Made by a program: the position numbers and the translations under genes. A DNA stretch of 64,000 nt from contig CM059445.1 in assembly GCA_030390025.1 (NCBI GenBank), positions 16,740,001 to 16,804,000 on the forward strand, given 5' to 3'. This DNA is from Squalus acanthias (taxonomy: Eukaryota). A model generated the notes under the pieces. That model was not told the origin of the DNA. It ran no database searches and worked only from the letters and a program-made list of their open reading frames with translations. Shown in pieces: positions 4,301-55,260 of the stretch. The stretch's first letter is position 1; each line of letters begins with the position of its first letter.

Positions 4301-7300
4301 TGCCTTTAAGGTATTATGATCCAGCACTTCACTCGCTGTAATCCTCCATCTCTTTTTTGCCCCGCAGGGTCCTGCTGGTTTTCCAGGTGATCCCGGTCCT
4401 TCAGGCGAGCCAGGAGTTCCTGTAAGTGAAAGTCTTTGAAGCTAAACCTCAGTGTGGCCTCCCGGCACTTAATTGCAAGTCAGTGGTCCAGCTAATACGC
4501 CGTACGCACAACTGACTGAATTGCGGGCTGGTGTAGTCATTCACCTTTTCTCCCAATCTGTCTTTATTTTTATTTTTTTTACACACTGAGAAACCATGGT
4601 GAAAGCACCATATTGTCCGGGACAGCAACAATAGGTAGGGATACCAACTCCGGACATATCCCTGGAGGTTTAATACAATACCTCTTGCCTCCAACCGCCC
4701 CATCCAGTCAAACCACCTTTCTTCCCCATCTCTGATCCTTTTATAACTAATAAGTAAACGTGTTCAAAGAAACTGGGGAAAAAATAACCCTATGATTTTC
4801 CTCCTGGTTTGCTCACAGCAATGCCCTGGAGATTAAGCTTCAATTCCCGGAGACTCCAGGCCAATCCTGGAGGGCTGGCAACAATAGGAGAGAAAAGTCG
4901 ATAAATTCAGAACATAAGAAACAGGAGCAGGAGTAGGCCAGTCGGCCCCTCGAGCCTGCTCCGCCATTCAATAAGATCATGGCTGATCCAATCTTGGCCT
5001 CAACTCCACTTCCCCGCTCTCTCCCCATACCCCTTGACTCCCTTGTAGTTCAAATGTCTGTCAATCTCCGCTTTGAATATATTCAATGACTCCACCTCCA
5101 CAGCTCTCTGGGATAGAGAATTCTAAAGATTCACGACCCTCTGAGAGAAGAAATTCCTCCTCATCTCCGTCTTAAATGGGCGACCCCTTATTCTGAAACT
5201 ATGCCCCTAGTTCTAGATTCCCCCACGAGGGGAAACATCCTCTCAGCATCTATCCTGTCAATCCCCCTCAGAATCTTATATGTTTCAATAAGATCACCTC
5301 TCATTCTTCTAAACTCCAATGAGTATAGGCCCAACCTGCTCAACCTTTCCTCATAAGACAAGCCTTCCATCCCAGGAATCAACCTAGTGAATCTTCTCTG
5401 AACTGCCTCCAATGCAAGTATTTCCTTCCTTAAATATGGAGACCAAAACTGTACGCAGTACTCCAGGTGCGGTCTCACCAGCGCCCTGTAAAGTTGCATC
5501 AAAACTTCCCTACTTTTATACTCCATACCCCTTGCAATAAAGGCCAACATTCCATTGGCCTTCCTAATTACTTGCTGGAAGCCATTCTAAAGGTCGGTAG
5601 ATAGTAGGAAGGAGGGATGGGGTTCCACAGTATGAGTTCCTGGAAAAGTCTGACTGTTCGGTGAGGGACGAACGTTTCTCGGGGTCCCGTCAAACAACGG
5701 GGGCGCAAGAGAGCAGCAAAGAAACTGGGTCCTGGGCCCCGTTGGGTGGAACAGTGGACAAACACACTGTGCTTCCGCCACTAGGATTTAAGTTTCAATC
5801 CAACTCGGGCTGATTGGATGAAAGTCATGCTCGTTCATAGAATGATACAGCACAGAAGGAGGCCATTCGGCCCATCGCGTTTGCGCCGGCTCTTTCGAAG
5901 AGCGATCCAGTCAGTCCCTCTCCCCCGCTCTTTCCCCATATCCCTGCAATTTTTTCTCCTTCAAGTATTTAACCAATTCCCTTTTTGAAGGCTACTATTG
6001 AATCTGTATCCACCGCCCTATCAGGCAGCGCATTCCAAATCCTAACCACTCGTTGCGTAAAAAAGTTTTTCCTCATGTCACCTCTGGTTCTTTTGCCAAT
6101 CACCTTAAATCTGTGTCCTCTGGTTATCAACCCTTCAGCCACTGGAAACAGTTTCCCTTTATTTACTCTATCTAAAACCTTCATAGTTCTAAGTGAAATA
6201 AGCCTGGGTCTGTCTCAATATAGTTTGCAGTGGGCATGAATGAACAGCACAAAATTGCCCATAATTTGGCAAGTTGTCAGTCTCGATCAAAGGGGCTACA
6301 AGGATGGCCTGTCACTCTGGGTACAGTAGGGGACATCCTTCTGAAGGTCAGGTCAAAGTGGATTGTCAGAGAAGAGGAGTTTGTGACCAAGGCATCTGCT
6401 CTAGGCTAGAAAGTCATGCACTAGGAAGAGACAAAAACCAGACGGGATGAAAGAAGTGTTGATAATTGACAGTACTTTATGCCAATGTTACATTGTCCAG
6501 CTCCTACCCCCTCCAATAACACCTTTCCTTTGAGATTGTGGGTAAGGTTGGCATTCATTCTTCTCTATTTCCTGCCCCACTAAAAATAACTACTTAGAAT
6601 CATAGAATGATACAGCACAGAAGGAGGCCATTCGGCCCATCGTGCCTGTGCCGGCTCTTTGAAAGAGCTCTCCAAATAGTCCCACTCCCCCCCTGCTCTT
6701 TCCCCACAGCCCTGCAGATTTTTCCTCTTCAAGTATTTCTCCAATTCCCTTTCAAAAGTTATTATTGAATCTGCTTCCACCGCCCTTTCAGGCAGCGCGT
6801 TGCAGATCACAACAACTCGATGCGTAAAAAACAAAACCTCCTCATCTCCCCCTCTGGTTGTTTTATCCAAGTACCTTAACTTATCTGTGACAACCAATGC
6901 ATTTTCTGATTTTATCTTAGGGTGTGGATGGTGGAGTTGGTGAGAAGGGCAGCCTTGGAGACCCTGGATTACCGGTAGGTTCTTCACAGTCAAAGCAAAA
7001 CTATGCATTCATCAAAAACTGCTTATATTGTCTTAAAAGTATTTTTTTTTTTGGTTTAAACTCCTTCCCCCACCTCCCCACACCCATCTCCCACAAATCG
7101 CTGGGGTGCTATGCCTACAACTAGCTGACAGCATGGACTAAACAGACGCAGTTCCAATGGGTTTCTTCCTCCTGTGCGCAAGGTGCAGTCGCCCTGCAGC
7201 ACTGTCAGGGAAATGTAAAAAATGAGAAGTCGCACAACACCAGGTTATAGTCCAACAGATTTATTTAATTTTACAAGCTTTCGAAGCAGTTCGCTCCTTC

Positions 7301-10300
7301 GTCAGGTAAGTTAGCAATGAGAGAATCTCCCAGAATTCACAATTTAAACCCAGACAAAATCTATTCACATTATTCCTTACAACAAAGAGCACAGCCAAGA
7401 CAATGAGATGTGTCCCAGGGGGTCCAACGTGTCAAACCACCTGCTGGCTGCATATCCTGTCAATTTGTGTTCTTGTGTTTAAAAAAAAACACACCTGGGA
7501 AGACCGGCCATGATGTCAAGTCACGTTCTGTATCGTGACATGAACCCGATATCGCGATTGAGGCCATCCTCATGAGTGCGGAACTTGGCTATCAGTTTCT
7601 GCTCTATGATTTTGCGCTGTCGTGTATCTCGAAGGCCGCCTTGGAGAACGCTTACCCGCAGATCCGAGGCTGAATGCCCCTGGCTGCTGAAGTGTTCCCC
7701 GACTGGGAGGCAACCCTCCTGCCTGGCGATTGTTGCGCGGTGTCCGTTCATACGTTGTCTCAGTGTCTGCATGGTCTCGCCGATGTACCATGCTCTGGAG
7801 CATCCTTTACTGCAACGTATCAGGTAGACAACGTTGGCCGAGTCACATGAGTATGTACCGTGTACCTGGTGGGTAGTGTCCTCACGTGTAATGATGGTAT
7901 CTGTGTCCATGATTTGGCATGTCTTGCAGAGGTTGCCGTGGCAGGGTTGTGTGGTGTCTTGGTTGCTGTTCTCCTGAAAGATGGGTAATCTGCTGCGAAC
8001 GATGGTACTTTTGAGGTTAGGCGGCTGCTTGAAGCCGCCTAACCTCAAAAGTACCATCGTTCGCAGCAGATTACCCATCTTTCAGGAGAACAGCAACCAA
8101 GACACCACACAACCCTGCCACGGCAACCTCTGCAAGACATGCCAAATCATGAACACAGATACCATCATTACACGTGAGGACACTACCCACCAGGTACACG
8201 GTACATACTCATGTGACTCGGCCAACGTTGTCTACCTGATACGTTGCAGTAAAGGATGCTCCAGAGCATGGTACATCGGCGAGACCATGCAGACACTGAG
8301 ACAACGTATGAACGGACACCGCGCAACAATCGCCAGGCAGGAGGGTTGCCTCCCAGTCGGGGAACACTTCAGCAGCCAGGGGCATTCAGCCTCGGATCTG
8401 CGGGTAAGCGTTCTCCAAGGCGGCCTTCGAGATACACGACAGCGCAAAATCATAGAGCAGAAACTGATAGCCAAGTTCCGCACTCATGAGGATGGCCTCA
8501 ATCGCGATATCGGGTTCATGTCACGATACAGAACGTGACTTGACATCATGGCCGGTCTTCCCAGGTGTGTTTTTTTTTAAACACAAGAACACAAATTGAC
8601 AGGATATGCAGCCAGCAGGTGGTTTGACACGTTGGACCCCCTGGGACACATCTCATTGTCTTGGCTGTGCTCTTTGTTGTAAGGAATAATGTGAATAGAT
8701 TTTGTCTGGGTTTAAATTGTGAATTCTGGGAGATTCTCTCATTGCTAACTTACCTGACGAAGGAGCGAACTGCTTCGAAAGCTTGTAAAATTAAATAAAT
8801 CTGTTGGACTATAACCTGGTGTTGTGTGACTTCTCATTTTTGTCCACCCCAGTCCAACGCCGGCATCTCCACATCAGGGAAATGTAATGCAGCAGAGTTT
8901 AGAGGGTGTGAGCTGTTGCTGGATTTGTTAGTTACTTATGAAACTTTTTCTTGCTCCAAACTGTGATGTAAACAGAGAGGGACAGAGAAATGTCCAGGCC
9001 CAGAATGGCCCTTTTCTAGTTGGTCAAAATGTACATGAAAAGTCTTGGGGGTGGGGGGGGTGAATTCGGTTGCTTTGCGCCTCCCGCTAGCGCCCCAAGA
9101 GAGCACTAACGGGGCGCAAAGCAACTCGCGTCCGGGCACGGTGCCGCCAACGCCTCCCGTGAAATTCAGCAGGAGGTTAGCAGCGGCGCTAACCGTTAGC
9201 GCCCCGCGGCCCTGTGCCGCCGGCGATGATGTCATCGCCGTGCGCAGCGCCCCGCTTGCGCCCCGGCCGCGATCTTTAGTAGCGCCCCCTGACTTACCGC
9301 CGGACGCTATTTAAAGGCGAGGTGCCGGGCGGCCATTTTTGTTGCCAGCACCTGCCCCCGTTGCCATCCCTGGCCTCCTTACCCAACCCCCCGCGGAGTG
9401 CCGGCTGCGCGCCTTGAGCCCAGCACTTCTCTTGAGTGCCGGGCTCTTTTGCCGGTACTTCCGATCTGGGCCCCGGGTCACGCTGCGCAAGGCCGCGATA
9501 TTCCCTTGCAGCGCCCCAGTAGCGCCCCGCTTCCCTCTTGGGGCGCTTTGTAACTTCCTGCTCCCATCTACACAACATCCTAATTATCTGCAAATCTGGA
9601 TATTCCTTCATCCAAATCATTAATGTATGTGGTTAAAGAGAGACTTGCATTTATATAGCGTTCTTCACGATCTCAGGACGTCCCAAAACGCTTTACAGCC
9701 AATGGAGTACTATAGAAGTGTAGTTACCGTTGTACTGTAGTGAAAGCTGAGACCTTGGTACAGATCTGAGTAGATCATGCCAATCGGAGGCCTTTATCCC
9801 TATAACTTCCAATCAATTAGCAGTTGCTTGTTCAACACTTCCAGTAACGACTGAATGGAAATCACAGCAACACTTCAACCAGCTTTTTTGCTCCAGCCAG
9901 CCAATTGCTTGTTCTCGAAGCTGCTGAAGAGGCTGAATCCATGTAACGTCTCTTTGTTGGGTTTGCAGGGTCCAATTGGTGCATCTGGCGAACCAGGTCC
10001 TCCTGGGTCTCCTGGAAAGAGAGTAAGTATTGCATACAAGACAGAAGAGCTTGCACTTATATAGCGCCTTTCACGACCTCCGGACGACCCAAAGTGCTTT
10101 ACAACCAATGAGCTACTTTGAAGTGTTGTAATGTAGGAAACGCGGCAGCCAATTTGCGCACAGCAAGCTCCCACAAACAGCACTCTGATAATGACCAGAT
10201 CATCTGTTTTAGGTGTTGGTTGAGGGATAAATATTGAGCAGAACACCGAGGAGAATTCCCCTGCTCTCTTCGAAATGGTGACCATGGGATCTTTACGCCC

Positions 10301-13300: not shown

Positions 13301-16300
13301 GGGAAGGGGTTTGATACACTGGAATTCTATCCAGTGGGATGATTGGAAAGGGTTTGATACACTGGAATTCTATCCAGCGGGATGATTGGAAAGGGTTTGA
13401 TATATCTCAATTGCATGCAATGAAAAATTCCGTTTAATTGGGAATCTCCCTATAATTGCCCTGCCACAACTCGCCTCTAGTCTCGACCTTAGCGGAAATT
13501 ATCTTTAAAAATGTTCATGACTTACATGGGAAGCACAAGACGCAGCGAGCTGTGTTAAAATTTCCTGCGTGCATCCTGAGCACTAAATGTAAAACTAATG
13601 TGGCTCGCGGGTGAATCGCAAGCACTGACAAAAGCCGATGAAACCAATTTAGGATTTTCCACTTGGCTGAGTCTCTGAGGGTGGGGGTGGATGTAACAGA
13701 TTGTCCATAATTCTGCATTTCAAACCTCATTTATTTTATCGGACTTTTTCACAATGCTCGGCACTTACACTTTTTCTACAATTCATTCTCTGGATGTGGG
13801 CGTCACTGGCAAGGCCAGCATTTATTGCCCATCCCTAGTTGCCCCTCGAGAAAGTGGTGCTGAGCCGCCGCCTTGAACCGCTGCAGTCCATGTGGTGAAG
13901 GTACTCCCACAGTGCTGTTAGGGAGGGAGTTCCAGGATTTTGACCCAGCGACGATGAAGGAACGGCTGATATATTTCCAAGTCGGGATGGTGTGTGACTT
14001 GGAGGGGAACTTGGAGGTGGTGGTGTTCCCATGCGCCTGCTGCCCTTGTCCTTCTAGATGGTGGAGGACGTGGGTTTGGGAGGTGCTGTCCCTTTGATTA
14101 AAAATAAGGTTCTTAACTGAATCACGTGGTGTTAGATATTTGTATTTTTAGATAAACTCCTTACAAGCACAACATCCTATATATTTACAGAATAACATCA
14201 TGTGGCCGTGTTATTTTTCATGTAGGGTTCGCCCGGACGAGAAGGCCCAACAGGTAGGACTGGGCCTGTGGGGCCACAGGGCTCACCAGGCAATCATGGG
14301 CCTGAAGGACTCCGAGGGATACCTGGCCCCGCAGTAAGTAAACGATACAAAGAGACTGTTATCATTATTATTTCATCATAAACTGTATCAACTGCTGGAC
14401 ATATTATCAATGGATAACCACTCGCAATGTCTTTTCTTTTCAAACAGGGAGAACAAGGCCTTCCTGGACCTCCCGGTCAGTCTGGTCCACCTGGCCCGAT
14501 GGTAAGATAGGAACAGGAGGAGGCCATTCAGCCCCTCGAGCCTGTTCCGCCATTCAATGAGATCATGGGTGATCTGTATCCTAACTCCATCCACCCGCCC
14601 TGGCTCCAGATCCTTATGTACCCTTGTCTAGCAAAAATCTATCGATCTCCGATTTAAAATTATTAATTGAGCTAGCATCTATTGCTTTTTTGTGGGAGAG
14701 AGTTCCACACTTCTACCACCCTTTGCGTGTAGAAGTGTTTCCTAACTTCTCTCCTGAATGGCCTGGCTCTGATTTTAAGGTTATGTCCCCCTTGTCCTAG
14801 ACTCCCCTATCCTCGATGTTCCCCCTAATTAGTTTTTGAGTGCGTGGCCCCTTTAAGGGGCTGTGCGGGCCATTCACAGTTTTGCGCATGCGCGGAATTT
14901 AGCATTGGAAAAGCTGGTCGTGAGGGACCGGCAAACAGCCGAGCAGCTTAGTGGGAACATTGCCCACCAGTGCAAAATGTTTCTCTCTACCTACCTTATC
15001 AATTCCTTTCAAAATCCTAAAAACCTCAATCCAATCCTCCCTTAACCGTTTACATTCCAGGGAATACAAGCCTAGTTGATGTAATCGCTCCTCATATAGT
15101 TTAACCCTTGGAGCCCTGGTAACATTCTGGTGAATCTGTGCTGCGCTCCTTCCAAGGTCAATAGATCCTTTCTAAGGTGCGGAGCCCAGAACTGCTCTCA
15201 GTACTCCAGATGTGGTCTAAGCAGGGCTTTGTACAGCTGTAGCTAAACCTCCTCCCATTTATATTCTAGCCCTCTAGCTACAAAGGCTAACATTCCATTA
15301 GTCTTTTTGATTTTATTTTTTGCGCCAGACTGCTACAGCTTAATGATGGAGTAGATTTAATCTGAGACTGATGATTCGGCCCTCTGCTTACAGAATGATT
15401 TTGAGAAACGGCTACCCTCCTGGGCAAACCAGTTTTATTTATTTTCAGTTCGTGCACTGTGACACTGAACTAAACTGCAATATTAAATAAAAACACAAGA
15501 CATAGGGGGCGGGAGTAGGCCATTCGGCCCCTCGAGCCTGCTCCGCCATTCAGTAAGATCACGGCTGATCTTTGACCTCACCTCCACCTTCCTGCCCGAT
15601 CCCCAAATCCCTTGATTCCCTTAATATCCAAAAATCTATCGCTCAGCCTTGAATATACTCATCGACTGAGAATCCACAGCCCTCTGGGGTAGAGAATTCC
15701 AACGATTCACCACCCTACACAATATTACTGTTTAAAAAAAAAAAATAACCTTCTCAAACTTCAAGAATATCTTAACTCCTGCAATATTAACTCCATGCCA
15801 GCAAATTAAATCCCTCAAATAATTTCATGCTAAAAATAATTTAACCTGTACTCGCCCAGCTATAATTTTTTCCTCTCCCAATTCTCTATTCTCTTACAAT
15901 CCTAGAATCCTACAGCACAGAAGAGGCCATCCAATTAGTCCCACTCCCCCTGCTCTTTCCCCATCGCCCTGCAAATTTCTCCTCTTGGAATATTTATCCC
16001 ATTCCCTTTTTGATAGTTACGATTGAATCTGCTTCCACTGTTCCGCACCCATGAGGACGGCCTCAACAGGGATCTTGGGTTCATGTCACGCTACATGTAA
16101 CCCCACCTGACGTAGAGTCATCCAGACTCGAGTCGTCGTTGGCTTGTTCTCTCTACACAGATGCGGCCAGACCTGCTGTGATTTCCAGCAAAAAAAGTTT
16201 TTTGTTTTCCATACAGACCCCAGCATCTGCCACATTTGACACCCTGTGAGCCCACCTCATTGTCTTTGATGTAAAGTTTTCCTGACTGACCTGTTTGGAC

Positions 16301-19300
16301 ACCATCCACACCTTTGATTGCCGTGATTATCTCTCTGCCGAGGTGTGATAAAGGGCAGTTAGAAAGATTAACTGTAGTCATCTGGCAGTGTTCTCTGACT
16401 ATATATGCTGTGCCTATATGCATCTCTTCACTTCACCTGACGAAGGAGCAGTGCTCCGAAAGCTTGTGATTTCAAATAAAACTGTTGGACTATAACCTGG
16501 TGTTGTGCGACTTCTCACACTGCCCTACCAGTCAGCGTGCTTTCCAGCATTTCCTTTAACTATGATTTTACTCTTTTTCTACCTATTTTAACCCTTTATA
16601 TTTTTTTTTTAAGTTTAAAGTGTTTCATTTCTTGTTCTCCTGCCTCCCTCTCCCACCAGCGATTTTGAAGGCCCAACGCCTTAAAATGAGAGTGTGCATT
16701 CCATATCGGGCAAACAGAACCTGCCCGAGTGGACTTTACAGCAGCTTGGTGTGGAGATCCTTAAATATGGGGATGGGACGCCGCACGTGTCTAGCTGACC
16801 GGAACATAGTGCCTCTCTTTCTTGATCTCCCTCCCTGCCTGTAATGATTTGCAAACATTCTCTGTTGCTTGTAGGAAAGGAGGAGGCTTACTATGGGGAG
16901 CAAGCTAACCCACCGTTCACAGCCATTGCGGAGGGCAATAGGTTCGGAATCAAAGTGAAATCCAACCTCTCTCGCTCTCACTCTCCAAAGAGAGATGGTG
17001 AGCGTAGTGTGACGAAATACTGGGATTGGGAGATGGCAATCCTGGGAGGAGGGCGAGAGGTTGTCAACATCTGTGGGACGCTCCTGCCTTTATATTAGGG
17101 GGACCTCGTTAAATCTCATCTGCTTGTCTTTTAATGTGTGTAACTGTCTGTTTTCTTACACTGTTTAGGGCCCTCCCGGTATGCCTGGTCTGAAGGGGGA
17201 TGAAGGATTAAAAGGTGACAAGGTAGGCAATCTCCTCAGATCCGTTGAAGAGATGGTGTGTTCGTGATGGCCTTGTTCTAATCACTTCTATAGATCCACT
17301 GGCACCCAGAGCCACATTCCTATTTAATACCCAACCTCATTTCATCCCAACACCGTTGAATTATCTACAGTAGTGATATATTAAATGTTATTACACTTAA
17401 TATGTCTCTCTTGCACACTCTGGGGGACGGTAGCATAGTGGTTATGGTACTGGCCTAGTAATCCCGAGGCCTTGACTAATAATCTGGAGACGTGAGTTCA
17501 AATCCCACCACAGCAGCTGGGGAATTTAAATTCAGTGAATTAAATAAATCTGGAATAAAAAGCTAGTGTCAGTAATGGTGACCATGAAACTACCGTAAAA
17601 ACCCAACTGGTTCACTAATGTCCTTTAGGGAAGGAAATCTGCTGCCCTTACCCGGTCTGGCCTATGTGGTTGACTCTTAACTGCCCCTCTGAAATGGCCC
17701 AGCAAGCCACTCAGTTGTAACAAATCACGACGACAAAGTCAGCACTGTGGGAGTACCTTCACCACACGGACTGCAGCGGTTCAAGAAGGCGGCTCACCAC
17801 CACCTTCTCGAGGGCAATTAGGGATGGGCAATAACTGCTGGCCTTGCCAGCGACACCCAGATCTCATGAACGAATAAAAAATAAATAAAACACTCTCACT
17901 CTCTCACATTCACAGATTTAATACTAAAGAGTTTGAAAATATGTAAATAACTGACATAACTTATGAATTTTCTTTTGTTCATTCATGGGATGTGGGCGTC
18001 GCTGGCAGGGCCAGCATTTATTGCCCGTCCCTAATTGCCCTGTGAGTACAGAGGCCATCCGAGTTCTGATGAGAGGTCATCCACCTGAAAAGTTAACTCT
18101 GTTTCTCTCTCCACAATTAAACCTGGCAGCAAGTTAGCAACATGTGTGCTCTGCCTCCTATTGGTCTAAGGGGCATTTTTCTTTGGGGTTTTTACTCCAG
18201 ATGTTCCCATGGGTTTAGCCTCATTGGCCCTTCCACAAGAAGAACTCTCATCTCCTATGAACCAGTGTGTGCTTTTACCTGCTCACTATCTGGGTAAAAG
18301 ACACGAGACCCAGGGTTTGAACAGTGAGCCCAATCACTGTACTCTGGTTTACTGGAATATATTGCATACTCCCCGGTGGTGATCTCATCTTCTGCAGGCA
18401 AATGAATTTCAGACTGAGGGAGGGGTCAGACTCTAATCCACTAGATACATATATTGAACATTAAACCGGTAAATAGACAGTGCTCAGTACAAATGGTATA
18501 TTTACAGTAAATAGACACTTTACCAATCTCAAAATGTCAGTAAGAACATTAAACTAATGCTTGATGCACCGTTCCTTCACTTCATTAGTGGTTCCTGAAA
18601 GGGGACTCGCCCTTTGCTTTGATGGCTTTGGAGTGACTGCTGCCTTTGTGCAATGCTACCCAAGATAGAATTCCAAATGTCTTTGACAATAGCTCAGAGT
18701 AAAAGGAAATAAAAGCTGTACTAGATTAGCCATTCAGAGGATTGAATGGAATCACTTGACTCCTTCCTGGGAAACCCATTGATTTAGTTCCAAACACGTT
18801 GGATCTGATCCAAGGGCGATGGCAGCATTCTAATTCTCCTGTCGTTTTTCCCTGTTTGTCTTTTCTAGGGGCATGCTGGTTTGATTGGCTTGATTGGACC
18901 TCCTGGTGAGATGGGCGAGAAGGGAGATCGAGGCCTTCCAGGAAACCAAGGAACACAAGGCCCCAAGGGAGAAATTGTGAGTACTGAGGCCATCCAATTG
19001 TTTACAAGCTACGATTCTGACCTACATTTTTGGCGGCAGACTTCACTGATATTGTGGGGAGGGGGGGAGGAGAGAGACGATAAGGAGGTCCTCAAGGGCC
19101 AACAAAGGGTCCAGCAACAATCCGCACTGTGTGATGTTTGCTGTCTCTGGTATCTTGCCTCTGGTGAGGTGAATATAAACGAGGCGTGATTTGGCTGCCA
19201 ATCCGCTTGAGGCATTCGTGCCACATGTACATGCCAGTTTTCCTCATCCCCCAATTCTCACTGCCATGACGGCCTGGTGCAGCACGCCTTATCTGCTCGT

Positions 19301-37300: not shown

Positions 37301-39435
37301 GTGTAGAAGTGTTTCCTAATTTCACTCCTGAAAGGTCTGGCTCTAATTTTTAATGATGCCTGAGGAAGGAGCAATCGATAGCTCCGAAAGCTTGTGATTT
37401 CAAATAAAACTGTTGGACTATAACTTGGTGTTGTGCGACCTCTCTAATTTTTAAGACTATGCCCCCCTAGTCCTAGAATCCCCAACCAGCGGAAATAGTT
37501 ACTCTCTATCTACCCTATCTGTTCCCCTAAATATTGTGAAGACTTAGATCAGATCACCCCTTAACCTTCTAAATTCCAGGGAATACAACCCTAATTTGTG
37601 TAATCTCTCCTTGAACTTAACCCTTGAAGTCCAGTGTTTTGACCAATATTTATCCCTCAACCAGCATCACTAAAACAGTTTATTTGGCCATTATCACATT
37701 GCTGTTTGTGGGAGCTTGCTGTGCGTAAATTGGCTGCCGCGTTTCCTACATTACAACAGTGACTCCACTTCAAAACTATTTCATTGGCTGTAAAGCGCTT
37801 TGGGACGTCCTGAGGTCGTGAAAGGCGCTGTAGAAATGCAAGTCTATATCTTTTTTATCGTGGAACCTCATTTATGGAAGAGCGGATAATGAAAATTGGT
37901 GCAACAGTATCCTAGGCATGGGAATGAAGATAATGCAAATAACAAATTGCATTGAATTTTCCTTGTGCTGTGAGGTTACTTTATATCGGACACTATGAGA
38001 TGGGTATGAGTGAGTTGTGCAATTAGGCAACAGCTCACACAAGATGTATCCTTGTAAAAATTCTGGCAGATATTGAAGGCAATAAATGGAGCCGTGATAA
38101 TTCGAGGTTGGATAAAGGAGGCTCCACTTCAGTGTTCAAGTAATGGATAATGGGGAATGTCTCCACATGAGTTCGAGCAAGAAGATTGCCTTTCATATAT
38201 TATCACAGGGTTTCCGTTGATCAAGAAGTTGTGGGAGTTTAGAGGATCATGGGATCTGAAGAGTTCTAGCTAACTCCATTTTGGTCACGGGAAACACACA
38301 ATTCAGCTCCTTGCTTGTTCTCCTCGTACAAAGCAAACTGTTTCTATAAAGATGGGCCAGTGCCAGTGGAGATACCCAAGGACTAGGCTGAATAGAAAGG
38401 GAGCTTTTATGCCCTAATCTTTAATCAACTTGCCCATTTGGAGACCTTGGCGTTCCCTGGAAAGTCTTCAGCCTTATGACCACAACATGTCAAAAACGGG
38501 CGTAATTTTATAACTGGATTCATCGCCCCTGATGGTTGGATCCTATTGGCTGAACCAGGTGTAATCAGAATGGAAGGTAGACTAGTGGTACTAAAGAATA
38601 TTAAAGGCAAGAGCAATCGGGAAAGAAGAGAGAAAGTCTCAGGAGAATTGAAGGGATTATTTGAAACTTGAGTCAATTCTTCACACTTAACCTGTGGGGG
38701 TTAACTGGTCATGAGTACAGTGACAACTGACTTAACTGAAGCATTGATACGGGGTAGGACATTCAGGACTGAGATGAGAAGAAATTTCTTCACTCAGAGG
38801 GTGGTGAACCTGTGGAATTCTCTACCCCAGAGGCTGTGGAGGCCAAGTCACTGAATATATTTAAGAAGGAGATAGATAGATTTCTAGACACAAAAGGCAT
38901 CAAGGGGTATGAGGAGAGAGCGGGAATATGGTATTGAGATAGAGGATCAGCCATGATCTCATTGAATGGCGGAGCAGGCTCGAAGGGCCGAATGGCCGAC
39001 TCCTGCTCCTATTTTTCTATGTTTCTATGTTTCAAAAGAAAGTAGTTTGTTGATGCAGAAGAGATTAGCGGGGAGAAAGGAGATAAATAAAATATGAGTC
39101 TAGGTCCTGATTGGCCCCTTCTCCATCTCGCACTCCTGTGTCCAAAGGAGGACTATGCAGGTCCACTCAATCTCAGCAAGGAAATGTGGGTGTTGCTTTG
39201 CCAGAGCGAGGGAGAAAAGAGCATGAGAAACTGGCTGGATCAGTGGATATTTTGCTTTATCTGAATTCTCTTTCCCTTCCACTTCCAGCTAAGGAAAGGT
39301 TCCGAGAGGACTGTGCTGGAGATTGACTCACCGCGAGTTGTCGACCTACCCATCAAAGACGTAGCCGTGACGGATTTCGGCGAGCATCAGCAGAAGTTTG
39401 GGTTTGAGGTTGGCCCTGTCTGTTTCAGCAGCTAA
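1257..39435 (+). CDS. COL5A3: 3' part of a clade B fibrillar procollagen gene (collagen V alpha-3-like), 19 coding exons; 5' part lies upstream of the window
   Basis: The spliced exons give an uninterrupted Gly-X-Y run, then [19 protein letters not shown] and a full COLFI domain ending EVGPVCFSS*. All introns are [37 protein letters not shown] and the terminal CFSS resemble COL5A3 more than COL5A1/COL11A1/COL11A2 (recalled sequences). Collagen V/XI call is near certain; the paralog is less so. Confidence 0.75.
1843..2555. mobile_element. non-autonomous PIF/Harbinger-like DNA element; related fragment at about 9055-9550
   Basis: TIRs GGGCTAGAATTTCGGT / GGGGGAGAAGTTCGGT; TSD TAA (1840-1842, 2556-2558); rich in TAGCGC/GCGCTA. 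Confidence 0.7.
2634..2687 (+). CDS. COL5A3: collagen helix exon, 54 bp: [18 protein letters not shown]
   Basis: tgacag|GGC...ACT|gtgagt. Confidence 0.95.
3683..3790 (+). CDS. COL5A3: collagen helix exon, 108 bp: [36 protein letters not shown]
   Basis: tctcag|GGT...GTG|gtaagt. Confidence 0.95.
4368..4421 (+). CDS. COL5A3: collagen helix exon, 54 bp: [18 protein letters not shown]
   Basis: ccgcag|GGT...CCT|gtaagt. Confidence 0.95.
4910..5580 (-). mobile_element. CR1 3' fragment, representative. Further CR1 tails at about 1-290, 3325-3460, 5837-6185, 6597-6865, 14507-15345, 15500-15715, 22675-23020, 25662-25960, 27340-27718, 28110-28408, 33095-33475, 36020-36385, 37078-37635, 38750-39035, 41130-41410, 45785-46400, 47170-47680, 51985-52695, 61450-61805, 62965-63465
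   Basis: [20 protein letters not shown]...RTRG; shared 3' motif GGGCCGAATGGCCT. Confidence 0.88.
6921..6974 (+). CDS. COL5A3: collagen helix exon, 54 bp: [18 protein letters not shown]
   Basis: tcttag|GGT...CCG|gtaggt. Confidence 0.95.
7271..7309 (-). ncRNA. minimal hammerhead ribozyme (mirror copy in the left arm)
   Basis: reverse complement of 8750-8788. Confidence 0.8.
8750..8788 (+). ncRNA. minimal type I hammerhead ribozyme (PLE family A)
   Basis: TTAC-CTGACGA-A-GGAGC(GAACT)GCTTC-GAAA-GCTT-GTAA; helix I TTAC/GTAA; palindromic AAGCTT in place of helix III. Confidence 0.8.
9969..10022 (+). CDS. COL5A3: collagen helix exon, 54 bp: [18 protein letters not shown]
   Basis: ttgcag|GGT...AGA|gtaagt. 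Confidence 0.95.
11975..12028 (+). CDS. COL5A3: collagen helix exon, 54 bp: [18 protein letters not shown]
   Basis: tttcag|GGG...AAG|gtatgg. Confidence 0.95.
12528..13402. repeat. G-rich minisatellite, 44 bp unit, about 20 copies
   Basis: Unit TGGAATTCTGTCCAGGGGGATATATGGGAAGGGGTTTGGCACAC; no unique spacers. Confidence 0.95.
14226..14333 (+). CDS. COL5A3: collagen helix exon, 108 bp: [36 protein letters not shown]
   Basis: atgtag|GGT...GCA|gtaagt. Confidence 0.95.
14448..14501 (+). CDS. COL5A3: collagen helix exon, 54 bp: [18 protein letters not shown]
   Basis: aaacag|GGA...ATG|gtaaga. Confidence 0.95.
16041..16517 (+). mobile_element. PLE 3' fragment inserted into a CR1 tail
   Basis: Starts with [19 protein letters not shown] (same C-terminus as the 8 kb element). 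Ends with the hammerhead plus AAACTGTTGGACTATAACCTGGTGTTGTGCGACTTCTCA. CACTG is repeated at both junctions. Confidence 0.8.
16433..16469 (+). ncRNA. minimal hammerhead ribozyme (family A)
   Basis: TCAC-CTGACGA-A-GGAGC(AGT)GCTCC-GAAA-GCTT-GTGA. Confidence 0.8.
17169..17222 (+). CDS. COL5A3: collagen helix exon, 54 bp: [18 protein letters not shown]
   Basis: gtttag|GGC...AAG|gtaggc. Confidence 0.95.
17424..17890 (+). mobile_element. second tRNA-headed SINE with a LINE-derived tail; other copies at about 23725-24092(-) and 58228-58590(+)
   Basis: TAGCATAGTGG and GTTCAAATCCC boxes; the 3' ~140 bp matches the 3' end of the LINE at 20552-21130. Confidence 0.75.
18061..18115 (+). ncRNA. hammerhead-bearing short repeat (family B), degenerate
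   Basis: GAGTT-CTGATGA-GAGGTCATCCACCT-GAAA-AGTT-AACTC followed by TGTTTCTCTCTCCACA. Confidence 0.65.
18869..18976 (+). CDS. COL5A3: collagen helix exon, 108 bp: [36 protein letters not shown]
   Basis: ttctag|GGG...ATT|gtgagt; [11 protein letters not shown] is a clade B signature; with the previous exon it forms the K-G-H helical cross-link motif. Confidence 0.95.
19904..19957 (+). CDS. COL5A3: collagen helix exon, 54 bp: [18 protein letters not shown]
   Basis: ttttag|GGT...CCA|gtaagt. Confidence 0.95.
20553..21132 (+). mobile_element. LINE 3' fragment (CR1/L2 group); related pieces at 13780-14090(-) and 55395-55645(-)
   Basis: [20 protein letters not shown]...SWNSLP, then a 3' tail with poly-A. 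Confidence 0.8.
21696..21969. repeat. perfect minisatellite, 24 bp unit, 11 copies plus a partial
   Basis: Unit CAGACATGGCCGCCCTGCCTGCAA. Confidence 0.95.
22254..22289 (+). CDS. COL5A3: collagen helix exon, 36 bp: [12 protein letters not shown]
   Basis: ttttag|GGT...GAT|gtaagt; a 36 bp exon at this position is typical of collagen V/XI genes. Confidence 0.95.
22395..22448 (+). CDS. COL5A3: collagen helix exon, 54 bp: [18 protein letters not shown]
   Basis: ttgcag|GGA...CCT|gtaagc. Confidence 0.95.
23254..23400. mobile_element. family B hammerhead element with an inverted 5' segment
   Basis: 23254-23288 on the minus strand reads GTT-CTGATGA-AAGGTCATCGGCCT-GAAA-TGTT-AAC; it abuts a + strand copy ATCGACCTGAAACGTTAACTCTGTTTCTC...CAGCATCCGCAG. 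Confidence 0.75.
24219..24702 (-). mobile_element. probable solo LTR, 484 bp
   Basis: TGTGAG...CTCACA termini; flanks GCCAC/CCCAC (4 of 5 match); AATAAA on the minus strand near 24282. Confidence 0.5.
24991..25240 (+). CDS. COL5A3: junction exon: end of helix, C-telopeptide, basic convertase-type site (RKKTRR), start of C-propeptide ([20 protein letters not shown]...[16 protein letters not shown])
   Basis: gaccag|GGC...GATG|gtaagt, 250 bp, phase-1 end. Confidence 0.95.
26191..27017. mobile_element. non-autonomous PIF/Harbinger-like DNA element; related copies at about 290-985 and 57620-57890
   Basis: TIRs GGGCTGGATTTT / GGACTGGATTTT; TSD TTG. Confidence 0.7.
28410..29140 (-). mobile_element. 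full-length Deu-domain tRNA SINE (SacSINE1-like) with an internal 33 bp unit expanded about 9 times (28733-29028)
   Basis: tRNA-like head at about 29070-29140, Deu core, AAATGCAAGTC tail; unit CTCCGACAGTGCGGCGCTCCCTCAGCACTGCCC. Confidence 0.85.
29904..30647. mobile_element. non-autonomous PIF/Harbinger-like DNA element (GC-rich ends, AT-rich core); similar architecture at about 50638-51365
   Basis: TIRs GGGCCGAAAATTGATC / GGCCCAGAAATTGATC; TSD AAT. Confidence 0.7.
31134..32448. mobile_element. PLE: ~1.2 kb minus-strand ORF fragment (N-terminal region and start of the RT) joined to a plus-strand hammerhead-bearing 3' end
   Basis: [11 protein letters not shown] and [16 protein letters not shown]...[13 protein letters not shown] are PLE RT motifs. 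ORFs 31572-32249 and 31068-31433 share a frame, separated by one TAA. The + strand 32341-32448 matches the PLE 3' end. Confidence 0.9.
32357..32398 (+). ncRNA. minimal hammerhead ribozyme (family A)
   Basis: TCAC-CTGAGGA-A-GGGGC(AATCGATA)GCTCC-GAAA-GCTT-GTGA. Confidence 0.75.
32636..32748 (+). CDS. COL5A3: C-propeptide exon, 113 bp: (G)[37 protein letters not shown]
   Basis: ctctag|GTGAT...GGA|gtaagt; YWIDPNQGC motif. Confidence 0.97.
33890..35310 (+). mobile_element. CR1 LINE RT-to-3' fragment with a nested inverted CR1 tail (about 34635-34790)
   Basis: [33 protein letters not shown]; [14 protein letters not shown]. Confidence 0.9.
35349..35417 (+). CDS. COL5A3: C-propeptide exon, 69 bp: [23 protein letters not shown]
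   Basis: ttccag|GTT...CAG|gtaagc. Confidence 0.95.
36575..36808 (+). CDS. COL5A3: C-propeptide exon, 234 bp: [36 protein letters not shown]...YDGCK
   Basis: ccgcag|CTT...AAA|gtaaag; [10 protein letters not shown] motif. Confidence 0.96.
37354..37441 (+). mobile_element. 88 bp PLE mini-insertion, essentially a hammerhead plus tail
   Basis: CTGAGGA 37360-37366, GAAAGCTT 37386-37393; TSD CTCTAATTTTTAA at 37341-37353 and 37442-37454. Confidence 0.85.
39289..39435 (+). CDS. COL5A3: last coding exon: [48 protein letters not shown]
   Basis: ttccag|CTA...AGC TAA; [15 protein letters not shown] motif. Confidence 0.97.
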
Positions 39436-45365: not shown

Positions 45366-45635
45366 TGTCTCCGAATTCTGCTTTTTTTTTATCCCCCCCT
45401 TCCTTATCTGAAGATATTACAAAGTTACAAATATTTACAGCACCGAAACAGGCCATTCGCCCAAGCGTTTGGGTCATCGGTCCTAATACCTCCTCATGGG
45501 GCTCGGTGTTAAATTTTTATCTGATTACGCTCCTGTGAAGCACCTCGGGATGCCTTACTATGTCAAAGGGGGCTATGTAAATGCACATTGTTGTTGTTGT
45601 TGTGGGCTGAAGGTGGCCAACACCAGTCCTTCTGA

Positions 45636-46621
45636 TACAATCGCAAAATACTGCGGATGCTGGAAATCAGAAATAACAACAGAAAATGCTGGAAACACTT
45701 GGCAGGTCAGGCAGCATCTGTGGCGAGAGAGAGAGAAACAGAGTTAACGTTTCAGGTCTGTGACCCTTCGTCAGAAGTGGAAAACATACAGATTAGGAGC
45801 AGGAGTAGGCCACTCGGCCCCTCGAGCCTACTCCGCCATTCAATAAGATCATGGTTGATCCGATTACTCTACATTCCCGCCTACCCCCGATAACCTTTCA
45901 CCCCCCCTTGCTCACCAAGAATCTATCTACCTCTGCCTTAAAAATATTCAAAGAATCTGCTTCCACCGTATTCTGAGGAAGAGAATTCCAAAGACTCACG
46001 ATCCTCTGAGAAAAGATTTCTCCTCATCTCTGTCTTAAATGGGCGACCCCTTATTTTTAAACAGTGACCCTTAGTTCTAGATTCTCCCACAAGAGGAAAC
46101 ATCCTCTCCACATCCACCCTGTCCAGACCCCTCAGGATCTTATATGTTTCAATCAAGTTACCTCTTACTCTTCTAAACTCCAGCGGATACAAGCCTAGCC
46201 TGTCCAACCTTTCCTCATAAGACAACCCGCCCATTCCAGGTATTAGTCTAGTAAACCTTCTCTGAACTGTTTCCAATGCATTTACATCCTTCCTTAAATA
46301 AGGAGACCAATACTGTACACAGTACTCCAGATGTGGTCTCACCAATGCCCTGTATAACTGAAGCATAACCTCCCTACTTTTGTATTCAATTGCCCTCGCA
46401 CTAAAAGGTTGGAGAAGTAACAGATTTTTAAGCAAGTGTGGGGCAAGGAAAGGGAGGAGGGGAGGAAAGGGCAAAGGGAAGGTCTGTGATAGGCTGGAAG
46501 GCAGGTCTTTAATCTCTCCTGCCTTCCATCCACAGCTTCTTCGACCTGAAACGTTGACTCTGTTTCTCTCTCCACGATGCTGCCTGACCTGCTGAGTGTT
46601 TCCAGCATTTTCTGTCGTCAT
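45636..46621. mobile_element. inverted pair of family B hammerhead elements, interrupted by a CR1 (about 45785-46400)
   Basis: Minus copy 45641-45780 (HHR 45741-45778); plus copy about 46541-46615 lacks the CTGA core; TSD ACCAGTCCTTCTGA at 45622-45635 and 46622-46635. Confidence 0.8.
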
Positions 46622-48074
46622 ACCAGTCCTTCTGAACCTGTTCCAAGACCATGGCCCAACACAGGTCCGACAGTTAACTGTCCTACAAAGTCAAATTTAG
46701 CTTTTGCTTCTTGGACAGTCTCTGCTTCCCTTCAGCAGGAACTGCTACTCAAATCTCATTTATCAGGTTTAACTCACAGCATTACACGAAGGGAGAGAAT
46801 CTGTCCCCTAAGGGCCTATTCTGCAAAATCTTGACTTTTTTGCAAGACCATATATCTTGACTTGCAGGGGTAATACGAAACCTGTCACAGGTTGATGTGC
46901 GAGAATGTCATGCTTTGTTAATGTGATTCAATGAGATTAGCTCTATAGTATTTAAGAAATACAGCCGCCTGCTGCATCGATGAATGGAGTAACGATTTCA
47001 CTTTAAAAACCTTACAGAAAAAGATTAGAGCAGAGTGTTAGGGCCCCAGAGGATATCTCTGTCTTCGCCTATATAATTCTACGTCTCCCTCGTTCGCTCT
47101 GACTTTTTATGGCTCTCTATGCCTGTCTCTGTCCTGCTGTCTCTATGGCTTTGGTTACAGCAGAGTGGCTGAGGTAGGAGTCCATACTTGCCTTGAAGGC
47201 AGTGCAACGAAGGTTCACTAGATTGATTCCTGGGATGAGGATTGTCCTATGAGGAGAGATTGAGTAGATTGGGCCTATGTTGTCTGGAGTTTAGAAGAAT
47301 GATCTCATTGAAATGTATAAAATTCTGAGGGGGATTGACAGGGTAGATGCTGAGAGGTTGTTTCCTCTGGCTGGAGAGTCTAGAACCAGGGGTCATAGTC
47401 TCAGGATAAGGGGTCGGCCATTTAAGACTGAGATGAGGAGAAATTTCTTAACTCAGAGGGTGGTGAATCTTTGGAATTCTCTACCCCAAAGGGCTGTGGA
47501 TGCTGAGTATATTCAAGACAGAGATGGATAGATTTTTGGACTCTAGGGGAATCAAGGGATATGGGGATCGGGCAGGAAAGTGGAGTTGAGGTCGATGATC
47601 AGCCATGATCTTATTGAATGGCAGACAGGCTCGAGGGGCCGAATGGCCTCCTCCTGCTCCTAAGTCTTATGTTCTTATTATTAATTGACCAGCGATACGA
47701 GTCCAGACTGGTATTGCGACTGACATTTGTAGGGACAGCAGGTGCCAAGTGTGGTTCTATTATTTAATTTGGGCAAATGCCTTTTTATCTCCACGCGGTT
47801 TAATTTTATATTTAATGAAATGGGCTCTTTATCCTAAAGAAACTTCAGGCTTTGTAAAGAAAACAATCCTTTATTACATGCTAGATAATCGACATCAGAA
47901 TTAAACAACATCTTCGGTTCAGGCACGATTTAGAATTGCTTTAACAATAATAAAAACATAGCAACTTCTGGCTCTCTAAAATGCAAACCCTTTGTGGAAA
48001 ACAATAGTCTCTCTCAGACTAACCCCTTAACAAAAGCTTATACACTCATGGTTTTGCTTAGGCCCTCTGAATAT

Positions 48075-48523
48075 TTTATACAGTAGCAAAATACTGCGGA
48101 TGCTGGAAATCTGAAATAACAACAGAAAATGCTGGAAACACTCAGCAGGTCAGGCAGCATCCGTGGAGAGAGAATCAGAGTCAACGTTTCAGATCTGGGA
48201 CCCTTCATCAGAACTGGAAAAGGCTAGAGATGTAATAGATTTTAAGCAATTGTTGAATTCAGTGTTGTGTTCAACAACTTCAGACTATAACCCCTGCCCC
48301 CATTTTTCAGGCTGTTGATGATTCTGCCATCCCCATTTGCAACATTTAATCCTGCCTCCTACCCTAGCACAGACTATTCCTTCAGTTCCTTCCTCCCCCT
48401 CCCCCCCCCTTTCCCTGTCTCTGCACCTGCTTAAAACCTGTTACATCTCTAACTTTTCCAGTTCTGATGAAAGGTCCCAGACCTGACACGTTGACTCTGT
48501 TTCTCTCTCCACGGATGCTGCCT
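48075..48523. mobile_element. inverted pair of family B hammerhead elements
   Basis: Minus copy about 48085-48250 (HHR 48178-48216); plus copy about 48428-48523 (CTGATGA 48464-48470, GAAA mutated to GACA); TSD GGCCCTCTGAATAT at 48061-48074 and 48524-48537. Confidence 0.8.
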
Positions 48524-48587
48524 GGCCCTCTGAATATCTTGATGGACGCGAATTGTGTTGCGGCTCATGATTTTCTCTTGTGGTTAG

Positions 48588-55160: not shown

Positions 55161-55260
55161 GTTCTGACGAAGGGTCATCGACCTGAAACGGTAACTCTGT
55201 TTCTCTCTCCACAGATGCTGCCTGACCTGCTGAGTACTTCCAGCATTTTCTGTTTTTATT
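55161..55260 (+). mobile_element. family B hammerhead element
   Basis: GTT-CTGACGA-AGGGTCATCGACCT-GAAA-CGGT-AAC plus the family tail; possible decayed TSD ACGTATTAAAATATG / ATGCATTAAAACATG. Confidence 0.7.

What the first reader, a model, noticed from the sequence alone, without database searches (positions are those of the whole stretch)
7205..48537. Recurrent architecture: inverted hammerhead elements with 13-14 bp TSDs
Seen: five PLE-derived insertions consist of a minus-strand segment followed by a plus-strand segment (7218-8873, 23254-23400, 31134-32448, 45636-46621, 48075-48523). Exact TSDs are 14 bp TCAGGGAAATGTAA, 14 bp ACCAGTCCTTCTGA and 14 bp GGCCCTCTGAATAT, plus 13 bp CTCTAATTTTTAA for the 88 bp non-inverted insert. 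Inference: both HHR families use a similar integration mechanism with a fairly fixed stagger, and inversion is a routine outcome rather than an accident. The products mimic TIR elements and would probably be misannotated as MITEs or as two separate insertions.
Basis: partly seen in the sequence, partly recalled or inferred. Interest (0 to 1): 0.7.

Follow-up and report, generated by a model that had tools for sequence, protein, structure and literature searches.

The report
Head-to-head Penelope retroelement insertions
Several dead pieces of Penelope-like jumping genes sit in the introns of a fish collagen gene as back-to-back mirror copies made in one jump; the layout is already described for this class, so the finding is mostly ordinary, though the junctions give small clues to how the mirror forms.

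Summary
The window holds 10 Penelope-like (PLE) insertion loci of two hammerhead-bearing families. The four exact 13-14 bp TSDs are confirmed. Two have empty-site support: a paralogous LINE, and contigs of two other samples. Against a fixed stagger: two of the five inverted loci show no exact TSD and one solo copy has only 5 bp. The genome-wide test could not be run. [quoted passage not shown] is the published PLE layout. The scan's own unchecked notes report it on other DNA of this and another genome. The best mechanism is one event: a staggered cut, both target 3' ends used, and cDNA fold-back. The possibly new detail is that the 6-15 nt junction loop follows the inverted partner, not the main arm (firm in 2, moderate in 1, weak in 1). 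That is opposite to simple snap-back and hints at hairpin opening. The "non-inverted" 88-bp insert may carry a 5-nt inverted arm. These are not MITEs.

The parts
7205..7218 (.). E1 left TSD copy (14 bp)
7219..8034 (-). E1 inverted, tail-less arm of family A (GIY-YIG C-terminal part, 3' UTR, minimal hammerhead). It includes the 6-nt loop 8027-8032 and a 2-nt overlap with the right arm
   Evidence: the native sequence beyond 8034 from loose ends in 3 of 4 runs shows that the loop belongs to this arm
8033..8841 (+). E1 right arm, 809 bp, 2 transitions from the left arm; GIY-YIG frame 8035-8538, hammerhead core from 8754
8842..8873 (+). E1 32-nt tail, present on this arm only; the native element continues 3 more letters that match the TSD start
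   Evidence: 137 and 112 contigs end at 8876 in runs X1 and X5
8874..8887 (.). E1 right TSD copy
   Evidence: 624-nt contigs in X1 and X5 fit from 8874 on and carry 405 upstream letters that do not fit the tail, read as the empty allele
16040..16517 (+). E7, solo 5'-truncated family A-type copy ending at the tail-less site; only a 5-bp direct repeat at its ends; holds a diverged family B-like end at about 16102-16249
18060..18115 (+). E9, short old solo family B copy, no TSD found
23254..23289 (-). E2 inverted piece, 36 nt: 21-nt stem plus 15-nt loop that is antisense to the hammerhead core
23290..23400 (+). E2 main arm, family B, with tail; TSD doubtful (9 of 14)
31135..32324 (-). E3 internal ORF piece (N-terminal domain to mid-RT, one in-frame stop), 57% identical to residues 61-458 of P0002; left end lost
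32325..32446 (+). E3 inverted tail-less terminal repeat with hammerhead; no TSD, no significant junction hairpin
37341..37353 (.). E4 left TSD copy (13 bp)
   Evidence: a paralogous LINE at 14745-14810 has one copy
37354..37358 (-). E4 five extra letters equal to the antisense of the family A tail end: candidate 5-nt inverted arm
   Evidence: chance 0.001-0.005
37359..37441 (+). E4 main arm: hammerhead to tail-less end
37442..37454 (.). E4 right TSD copy
45622..45635 (.). E5 left TSD copy (14 bp)
45636..46505 (-). E5 main arm, family B with 37-nt tail, split by a nested LINE 3' piece (45783-46403)
46506..46542 (+). E5 12-nt loop and short inverted stem (11 bp exact; about 25 nt with small gaps)
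   Evidence: loop orientation only weakly supported (P 0.16)
46543..46621 (+). E5 short tail-less arm, 79 nt
46622..46635 (.). E5 right TSD copy
48061..48074 (.). E6 left TSD copy (14 bp)
48075..48249 (-). E6 short arm, family B, with tail
48250..48269 (-). E6 8-bp stem plus 12-nt loop, read as antisense of the last codons of the endonuclease
48270..48523 (+). E6 main arm; it stops 77 nt short of the other arm's end, at a site where the target matches the replaced element sequence in 9 of 14 letters
48524..48537 (.). E6 right TSD copy
55162..55260 (+). E8, solo family B copy ending at the tail-less site, decayed TSD (55147-55161/55261-55275, 12 of 15)
   Evidence: 11 of 14 or better in 5 of 1500 random pairs

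Best explanation
These are 5'-truncated insertions of two endonuclease-bearing Penelope-like families, each made in one event. SHOWN in the sequence: PLE identity of family A; minimal hammerhead motifs; head-to-head arms with element 3' ends at both target junctions; a 32-37 nt tail on one arm; exact 13-14 bp TSDs at 4 loci; short hairpin loops (6-15 nt) at 4 of 5 inversion junctions; E1 arms copied from one template. INFERRED: (1) the RT-GIY-YIG protein nicks the two target strands about 13-14 nt apart; (2) both target 3' ends are used, priming mostly at the two RNA sites that bound the tail, sometimes at a nearby site with chance complementarity; (3) a cDNA 3' end folds back on 1-2 matching bases and primes its own second strand; (4) the hairpin is resolved so that the loop ends up on the strand joined to the other target end. 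That happens either by capture of its 3' end on the tail-primed cDNA (fits E1) or by a nick on the first-strand side and ligation (fits E2, E5, E6); (5) fill-in fixes the TSD. They are dead remnants with no sign of a host function.
For: TSDs and their null. Empty site for E4 in a paralog and for E1 in two samples of two studies. Adjacency null 5 of 200,000. E1 arms differ at 2 of 809 sites, while 40 rows of other letters are listed for other family copies over this arm, with 26 more not shown, so the arms share one template. One 881-aa RT-plus-endonuclease protein matches both E1 (62%) and E3 (57%). Hammerhead stems pair in 44 of 45 cells with one compensatory pair. 137 and 112 contigs end at the tail end. 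In vitro, the anole Poseidon protein cuts and extends both target strands and starts RT at two sites that bound the tail (PMC11167929, main text read).
Against: n is small, and no genome-wide census was possible. E2, E3, E7 and E9 lack a 13-14 bp TSD. Only 1 of the 9 joints listed changes strand, and it is not a tight hairpin (8234 to 8355). No run showed E1's own palindrome centre. Exact stems of 6 bp or more occur in 30%, and of 8 bp or more in 5%, of random 50-nt windows, so the E2 and E6 hairpins rest partly on their position and loop identity. The E5 loop orientation is weak. Target-to-RNA complementarity is significant at E6 but not at E5 right or E1 left, and PMC11167929 reports priming without homology. 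Family B has only about 7 codons of protein evidence. The hammerhead covariation is not above shuffles (173 of 500).
Confidence: 0.72

Rival explanations
1. Pure twin priming as in L1: two cDNAs, one from each target end, are joined at their 3' ends by microhomology, with no fold-back. The hairpins are chance or come from RT stopping at the same place.
For: E3 and E4 show no junction hairpin. E5's arms differ at a few sites where each arm matches other copies, a weak hint of two RNAs. L1 5'-inverted insertions keep discrete 12-18 bp TSDs (PMC11702581, passages).
Against: In E1 the two 810-nt copies end within 8 nt of each other and overlap on 2 bases. Tight hairpins sit at 4 of 5 junctions. 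The L1 segments described are adjacent parts of one RNA, not two copies of the same 3' end.
Confidence: 0.1
2. Every inverted locus began as a long perfect palindrome like E1 (second-primed cDNA folds back), and E5 and E6 lost most of one arm's inner part by later deletion; no hairpin nicking is needed.
For: E1 fits directly. Long palindromes are known to be unstable (own knowledge). E5 and E6 are older (arms about 90% alike), and E5 has small gaps near the loop.
Against: Both deletions would have to start 8-25 nt from the loop, in the loop-bearing arm, and spare the loop. E2 would need priming at a site that is neither tail end.
Confidence: 0.25
3. Self-priming on an antisense RNA template makes the head-to-head palindrome before integration (proposal in PMC3846280, Discussion).
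For: It explains palindromes at inverted junctions; proposed in print for rotifer Penelope elements.
Against: The cDNA is itself antisense, so fold-back needs no antisense RNA. The sense RNA is the template in vitro (PMC11167929). It does not explain both ends falling at the two tail-bounding sites.
Confidence: 0.08
4. Each pair is two independent insertions, or a TIR DNA transposon (MITE), or, for E1, an assembly artefact.
For: PLEs can insert in their own terminal repeat (PMC11167929). No run showed E1's centre.
Against: One TSD brackets each pair. The adjacency null is 5 of 200,000. The inverted repeats are offset by the tail and hold retroelement coding sequence. An artefact would not give a TSD, a one-sided tail and two transitions between the arms.
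Confidence: 0.04

Closest known systems
Canonical endonuclease-bearing PLE insertion units (Penelope/Poseidon; Craig et al. 2021 PMC8557442, passages and one Discussion section read; Arkhipova et al. 2013 PMC3846280, passages and Discussion read)
   Same: 5'-truncated copies, an inverted truncated copy at the 5' end, a 30-40 bp tail on one side, short TSD, palindromes at the inverted junction, assembly and annotation trouble.
   Different: TSDs here are 13-14 bp against 8, 9 and 10 bp in the rotifer examples. The passages read do not say which arm the junction loop belongs to.
Poseidon of Anolis carolinensis, PAc (Frangieh et al. 2024 PMC11167929, main text read, supplements not read)
   Same: RT then GIY-YIG; hammerhead in the terminal repeat; both target strands cut and extended; two RT start sites that bound the tail.
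   Different: PAc primes without homology and prefers AT-rich ATT sites; here two TSDs are 50% GC and one junction shows 9-of-14 complementarity. The paper leaves second-strand synthesis and inversion unexplained.
Minimal PLE hammerheads (Cervera and de la Pena 2014 PMC4209133, Results and Discussion read)
   Same: Type I core with palindromic stub in place of helix III; pairs on opposite strands 100-700 bp apart are reported.
   Different: No difference found; cleavage not tested here.
L1 twin priming (PMC11702581 and PMC10191854, passages; the 2001 original seen only as a reference)
   Same: Both target ends prime; discrete TSD of similar length (12-18 bp); microhomology at junctions.
   Different: L1 uses a poly(A) end plus an internal site, giving adjacent non-overlapping segments. 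Here both arms copy the same 3' end and there is no poly(A).
R2 cDNA snap-back 5' junctions (PMC11371274, passages)
   Same: The cDNA 3' end primes synthesis on itself, giving antisense sequence at the 5' junction.
   Different: By geometry (my inference) plain snap-back leaves the loop in the orientation of the main arm; here it follows the inverted partner in E1, E2 and E6, and leans that way in E5.

Membership tests
EN+ Penelope-like element, family A (E1, E3, E4, E7) | Single ORF with RT followed by C-terminal GIY-YIG endonuclease | tested here: met
   P0002 (881 aa, RVT_1 hit) matches E3 residues 61-458 at 57% and E1 residues 715-880 at 61-62%; three other long hits carry GIY-YIG matches, one above cut-off; Atlas GIY-YIG lead at 0.96. 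No complete ORF in the window; the window pieces alone gave no significant Pfam hit.
EN+ Penelope-like element, family A (E1, E3, E4, E7) | Minimal type I hammerhead motif in the terminal repeat | tested here: met
   Core letters present; stems I and II pair in 44 of 45 cells, slid controls 24-54%. Rfam found no hammerhead match. Cleavage not testable.
EN+ Penelope-like element, both families | 30-40 nt tail on one side of the insertion | tested here: met
   32 nt in E1, 37 nt in E5; many copies end at the E1 tail end.
EN+ Penelope-like element, both families | Inverted 5'-truncated copy next to the 5' end; short TSD | tested here: met
   5 of 10 loci inverted; 4 of 10 with exact 13-14 bp TSD.
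EN+ Penelope-like element, family B (E2, E5, E6, E8, E9) | Link to a PLE ORF | tested here: inconclusive
   Only the last 7 or so codons remain in E6; they fit the endonuclease C-terminal pattern N-x-D/E (71 of 97 motifs), but no protein among 150 hits matched them.
Penelope/Poseidon clade (versus Neptune, Nematis) | RT phylogeny; no extra zinc finger in the linker | not tested
   No tree built; the linker of P0002 shows no extra cysteine cluster by eye.
MITE / TIR DNA transposon | Inverted repeats at both termini | tested here: not met
   In E1, E5 and E6 one repeat ends 32, 37 and 77 nt short of the other's end.
MITE / TIR DNA transposon | No retroelement sequence; superfamily-typical TSD of 2-10 bp (recalled) | tested here: not met
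   GIY-YIG and RT coding sequence, hammerheads, 13-14 bp TSD.
L1-type twin-primed inversion | Poly(A)-primed 3' segment plus adjacent, non-overlapping inverted internal segment | tested here: not met
   No poly(A); arms overlap in E1, E2, E5, E6. E3 alone looks non-overlapping but has lost its left end.
R2-type plain snap-back | Loop in the orientation of the main cDNA (inferred geometry) | tested here: not met
   Opposite in E1 relative to the tail-bearing arm, E2 (scores 32-34 against 9-12) and E6; E5 inconclusive.

The most novel reading that the evidence does not exclude
PLE integration runs through a DNA hairpin that is opened by a nick. The main cDNA folds back and primes its second strand, the hairpin is cut on the first-strand side a few to a few dozen bases from the tip, and the freed 5' end is ligated to the other target end. 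This leaves a palindromic cap like the P nucleotides of V(D)J joints. Together with a dimer that cuts 13-14 nt apart and primes at both tail-bounding sites (the 5-nt arm of E4), it would give one mechanism for the inverted repeat, the one-sided tail and the junction palindromes, with a rule that any shark genome can test: the loop follows the inverted partner.
Probability: 0.25. Interest if true: 0.6.

Novelty: new member of a known kind. Interest (0 to 1): 0.28.

Why it matters
How PLEs form their inverted repeats and one-sided tail is still described as unresolved (PMC8557442, PMC11167929). The architecture itself is known, so the finding adds little as a discovery. Its value is as raw material. 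These families are young and abundant (12,718 and 11,751 contigs laid on one arm in two runs), and at least E1 is absent from two related samples. Three junction features (TSD length, loop orientation, tiny tail-primed arms) could therefore be counted in thousands of copies and would separate the competing mechanisms.

Tried and rejected
Genome-wide census: no genome is held. Pattern scans found 0 copies in viral contigs and 0 in metagenome contigs. One 23-nt match in a bacterial genome had unrelated flanks and was rejected as chance. Rfam gave no hammerhead hit at E up to 1. Pfam gave no significant hit on the window's own PLE pieces. Folding four single hammerheads and one tail region gave z-scores from -2.0 to +1.6, which is uninformative. 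My first rule, 'the loop always belongs to the tail-less arm', failed: E6's loop reads better as antisense on the strand of the tail-bearing arm, so it holds in at most 3 of 4. A general rule of homology-driven priming was rejected. It is significant at E6 right (9 of 14, P 0.002) and borderline at E8 (7 of 14, P 0.04), but not at E5 right (5 of 14) or E1 left (4 of 14); E4 reaches 10 of 11 only after allowing a 2-base slip and a subfamily letter. Priming at the ribozyme cut in E2 was not adopted: the arm starts about 3 nt beyond the predicted cut, n = 1. The depth drop from bin 8799-8835 to 8836-8872 is not a copy count and was not used. All four solo copies lie on the + strand, which is not significant. 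Literature searches found no paper joining Penelope with twin priming as a mechanism, none giving shark PLE TSD lengths, and none stating loop orientation. [quoted passage not shown]
Full report
Setting. The window is repeat-rich vertebrate DNA around a fibrillar collagen gene (COLFI hit, E 4.5e-13). I read the repeats as those of a cartilaginous fish from recall; earlier scan notes on this genome say the same (unchecked).

Observation. The four TSD strings each occur exactly twice, at the stated junctions. Junction-anchored matches of 13 bp or more arose in 4 of 3000 random pairs. Profile searches found 5 terminal-repeat ends of family A and 9 of family B, plus one internal ORF piece, forming 10 loci. 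Five loci are head-to-head: E1 7219-8873, E2 23254-23400, E3 31135-32446, E5 45636-46621 and E6 48075-48523. Random placement gave 5 or more such pairs in 5 of 200,000 trials. 'Minus then plus' reads the same on both strands; it means that element 3' ends face outward.

TSDs in full. Exact 14, 13, 14 and 14 bp at E1, E4, E5 and E6. A decayed 12-of-15 match at E8 (11 of 14 or better in 5 of 1500 random pairs). 9 of 14 at E2 (about 6% by chance). 5 bp at E7. None at E3 or E9; the nested copy in E7 was not tested by script. E3 lies between a cut SINE and a cut LINE, so its left end and TSD were lost. For E4, a paralogous LINE at 14745-14810 holds one copy of the target. For E1, runs X1 and X5 (two samples, two studies, one organism label) each have a 624-nt contig that fits from 8874 onward and carries 405 upstream letters that do not fit the tail. 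The letters were not printed; I infer the empty allele. These contigs differ from the window at 5 of 197 letters, so the samples may be another population or a close species. A 13-14 bp preference is therefore plausible for both families but rests on five loci, with one 5-bp counter-example and a detection bias toward long exact repeats.

Identity. A search of 1.84 billion representatives with the E1 reading frame gave 3837 hits at E up to 0.001, of which the best 150 were returned. One of them, P0002 (881 aa, RVT_1 hit), matches E1's frame at its C-terminus (62%) and E3's frame at residues 61-458 (57%). Three other long hits carry GIY-YIG matches, one above Pfam's cut-off. Family A is thus an RT-then-GIY-YIG PLE. 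Its terminal repeat has a minimal type I hammerhead whose two stems pair in 44 of 45 cells, against 24-54% when slid; covariation is not above shuffles. Family B has the same kind of motif and, in E6, only the last few codons of an endonuclease, so its link to an ORF is weaker.

Tail. E1's right arm runs 32 nt beyond the left; E5's left arm runs 37 nt beyond the right. In (X1; X5) contigs leave the element at 8876, three letters into E1's TSD, into mixed flanks. This is the family's usual outer end, and E1 has a 3-base overlap with its target there. E3, E4, E7 and E8 end at or near the inner, tail-less site. This is the layout published for PLEs: an inverted 5'-truncated copy, a 30-40 bp tail on one side, short TSDs (8-10 bp in rotifer examples) and palindromes at the inverted junction (PMC8557442; PMC3846280; PMC8969392 passages). 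Opposite-strand hammerhead pairs 100-700 bp apart are also reported (PMC4209133). In vitro, the anole Poseidon protein cuts and extends both target strands and starts RT at two sites that bound the tail (PMC11167929; its supplementary figures, not read, may bear on junction homology).

Junctions. E1's arms differ at 2 of 809 sites, while other family copies differ from them at dozens of sites, so both arms come from one template. Loose ends in 3 of the 4 runs give the native sequence past 8034. They show that the 6-nt loop and two more bases continue the left, tail-less arm, and that those two bases pair with the arm: a fold-back on 2 bp. Exact hairpins also sit at E2 (stem 6, loop 15), E5 (11, 12) and E6 (8, 12), but not significantly at E3 or E4. 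Stems of 6, 8 and 11 bp or more occur in 30%, 5% and 0.3% of 1500 random 50-nt windows. E2's loop is antisense to the hammerhead core (scores 32-34 against 9-12). E6's loop read as antisense gives N-x-E, the pattern near the end of related endonucleases (D or E two residues after N in 71 of 97 motifs, V in 0; the 97 come from 102 of 150 proteins with the motif, 5 too short); read as sense it lacks both. E5's loop leans to the short inverted piece, but only weakly (P 0.16 against 0.65). So the loop follows the inverted partner, firmly in two cases, moderately in one and weakly in one. Plain snap-back of the main cDNA, as described for R2 (PMC11371274), would by my geometry leave it in the other orientation. 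My first version of this rule (the loop belongs to the tail-less arm) failed at E6.

Two further details. The 'non-inverted' E4 starts with five letters that are neither target nor the native upstream sequence and equal the antisense of the tail end (chance 0.001 per offset, 0.005 over five offsets; noticed after the fact). It may be a twin-primed insertion with a 5-nt arm. E6's main arm stops 77 nt early, where the target matches the replaced element sequence in 9 of 14 letters (P 0.002 alone; E8 gave P 0.04, and E5 right and E1 left were not significant).

Mechanism. Most likely one event: two nicks 13-14 nt apart, both target 3' ends used, priming mostly at the tail-bounding sites, and cDNA fold-back for the second strand. 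Resolution puts the loop on the strand joined to the other target end. E1 fits capture of the folded-back strand by a tail-primed cDNA. E2, E5 and E6 fit a nick on the first-strand side of the hairpin without extra events, but later deletions in long palindromes explain E5 and E6 nearly as well. These steps are inferred, not shown. Against them: n is 4-5, only 1 of 9 joints listed changes strand and it is not a tight hairpin, and no run showed E1's own centre.

Novelty. The architecture is known, and the scan's own unchecked notes report it in two other pieces of this genome and in another genome. These are new members of a known kind. My nine literature searches did not find shark PLE TSD lengths or a statement on loop orientation, but older key papers were not available to me. 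The MITE reading fails: the repeats are not terminal on both sides and carry retroelement coding sequence. Whether software would misannotate them was not tested. Interest 0.28.

Noticed in passing
window 16102-16249 inside 16040-16517: A diverged family B-like end with a damaged hammerhead core lies right after the stop codon of a family A-type copy. The same junction appears in one contig of another organism (run X10), so it is either an old orthologous insertion or a chimeric subfamily with two hammerhead-like motifs.
   Followed up: partly
window 45783-46403: A LINE 3' piece (79% like 4923-5541; CR1-type by recall) is nested in the E5 main arm just upstream of the hammerhead, at a short A run.
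   Followed up: partly
window 45636-45782 versus 46543-46621: The two E5 arms differ at a few sites where each matches a different other copy; a weak hint that two RNAs were used. E6's arms, by contrast, share their diagnostic letters.
   Followed up: partly
window 31134 and 32447-32586: E3 joins a cut SINE on the left to a cut LINE on the right, so host DNA and most of the element were deleted, at or after insertion.
   Followed up: partly
window 17811-18041: A 230-bp imperfect palindrome made of two head-to-head ends of a different dispersed repeat (73% self-complementary), right beside E9; possibly a fold-back of another retroelement or a true MITE.
   Followed up: no
window about 9060-9560: GC-rich stretch with apparently inverted ends, no other copy in the window; candidate non-autonomous DNA transposon.
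   Followed up: no
window 12396-13487, 21624-22022, 28694-29061: Tandem arrays with 44, 24 and 33 bp units; the 33-bp unit resembles part of a neighbouring SINE.
   Followed up: no
window 25108-25242 and about 32627-32748: Exons of the C-propeptide of a fibrillar collagen on the + strand; E2 lies just upstream of the first and E3 between the two.
   Followed up: partly
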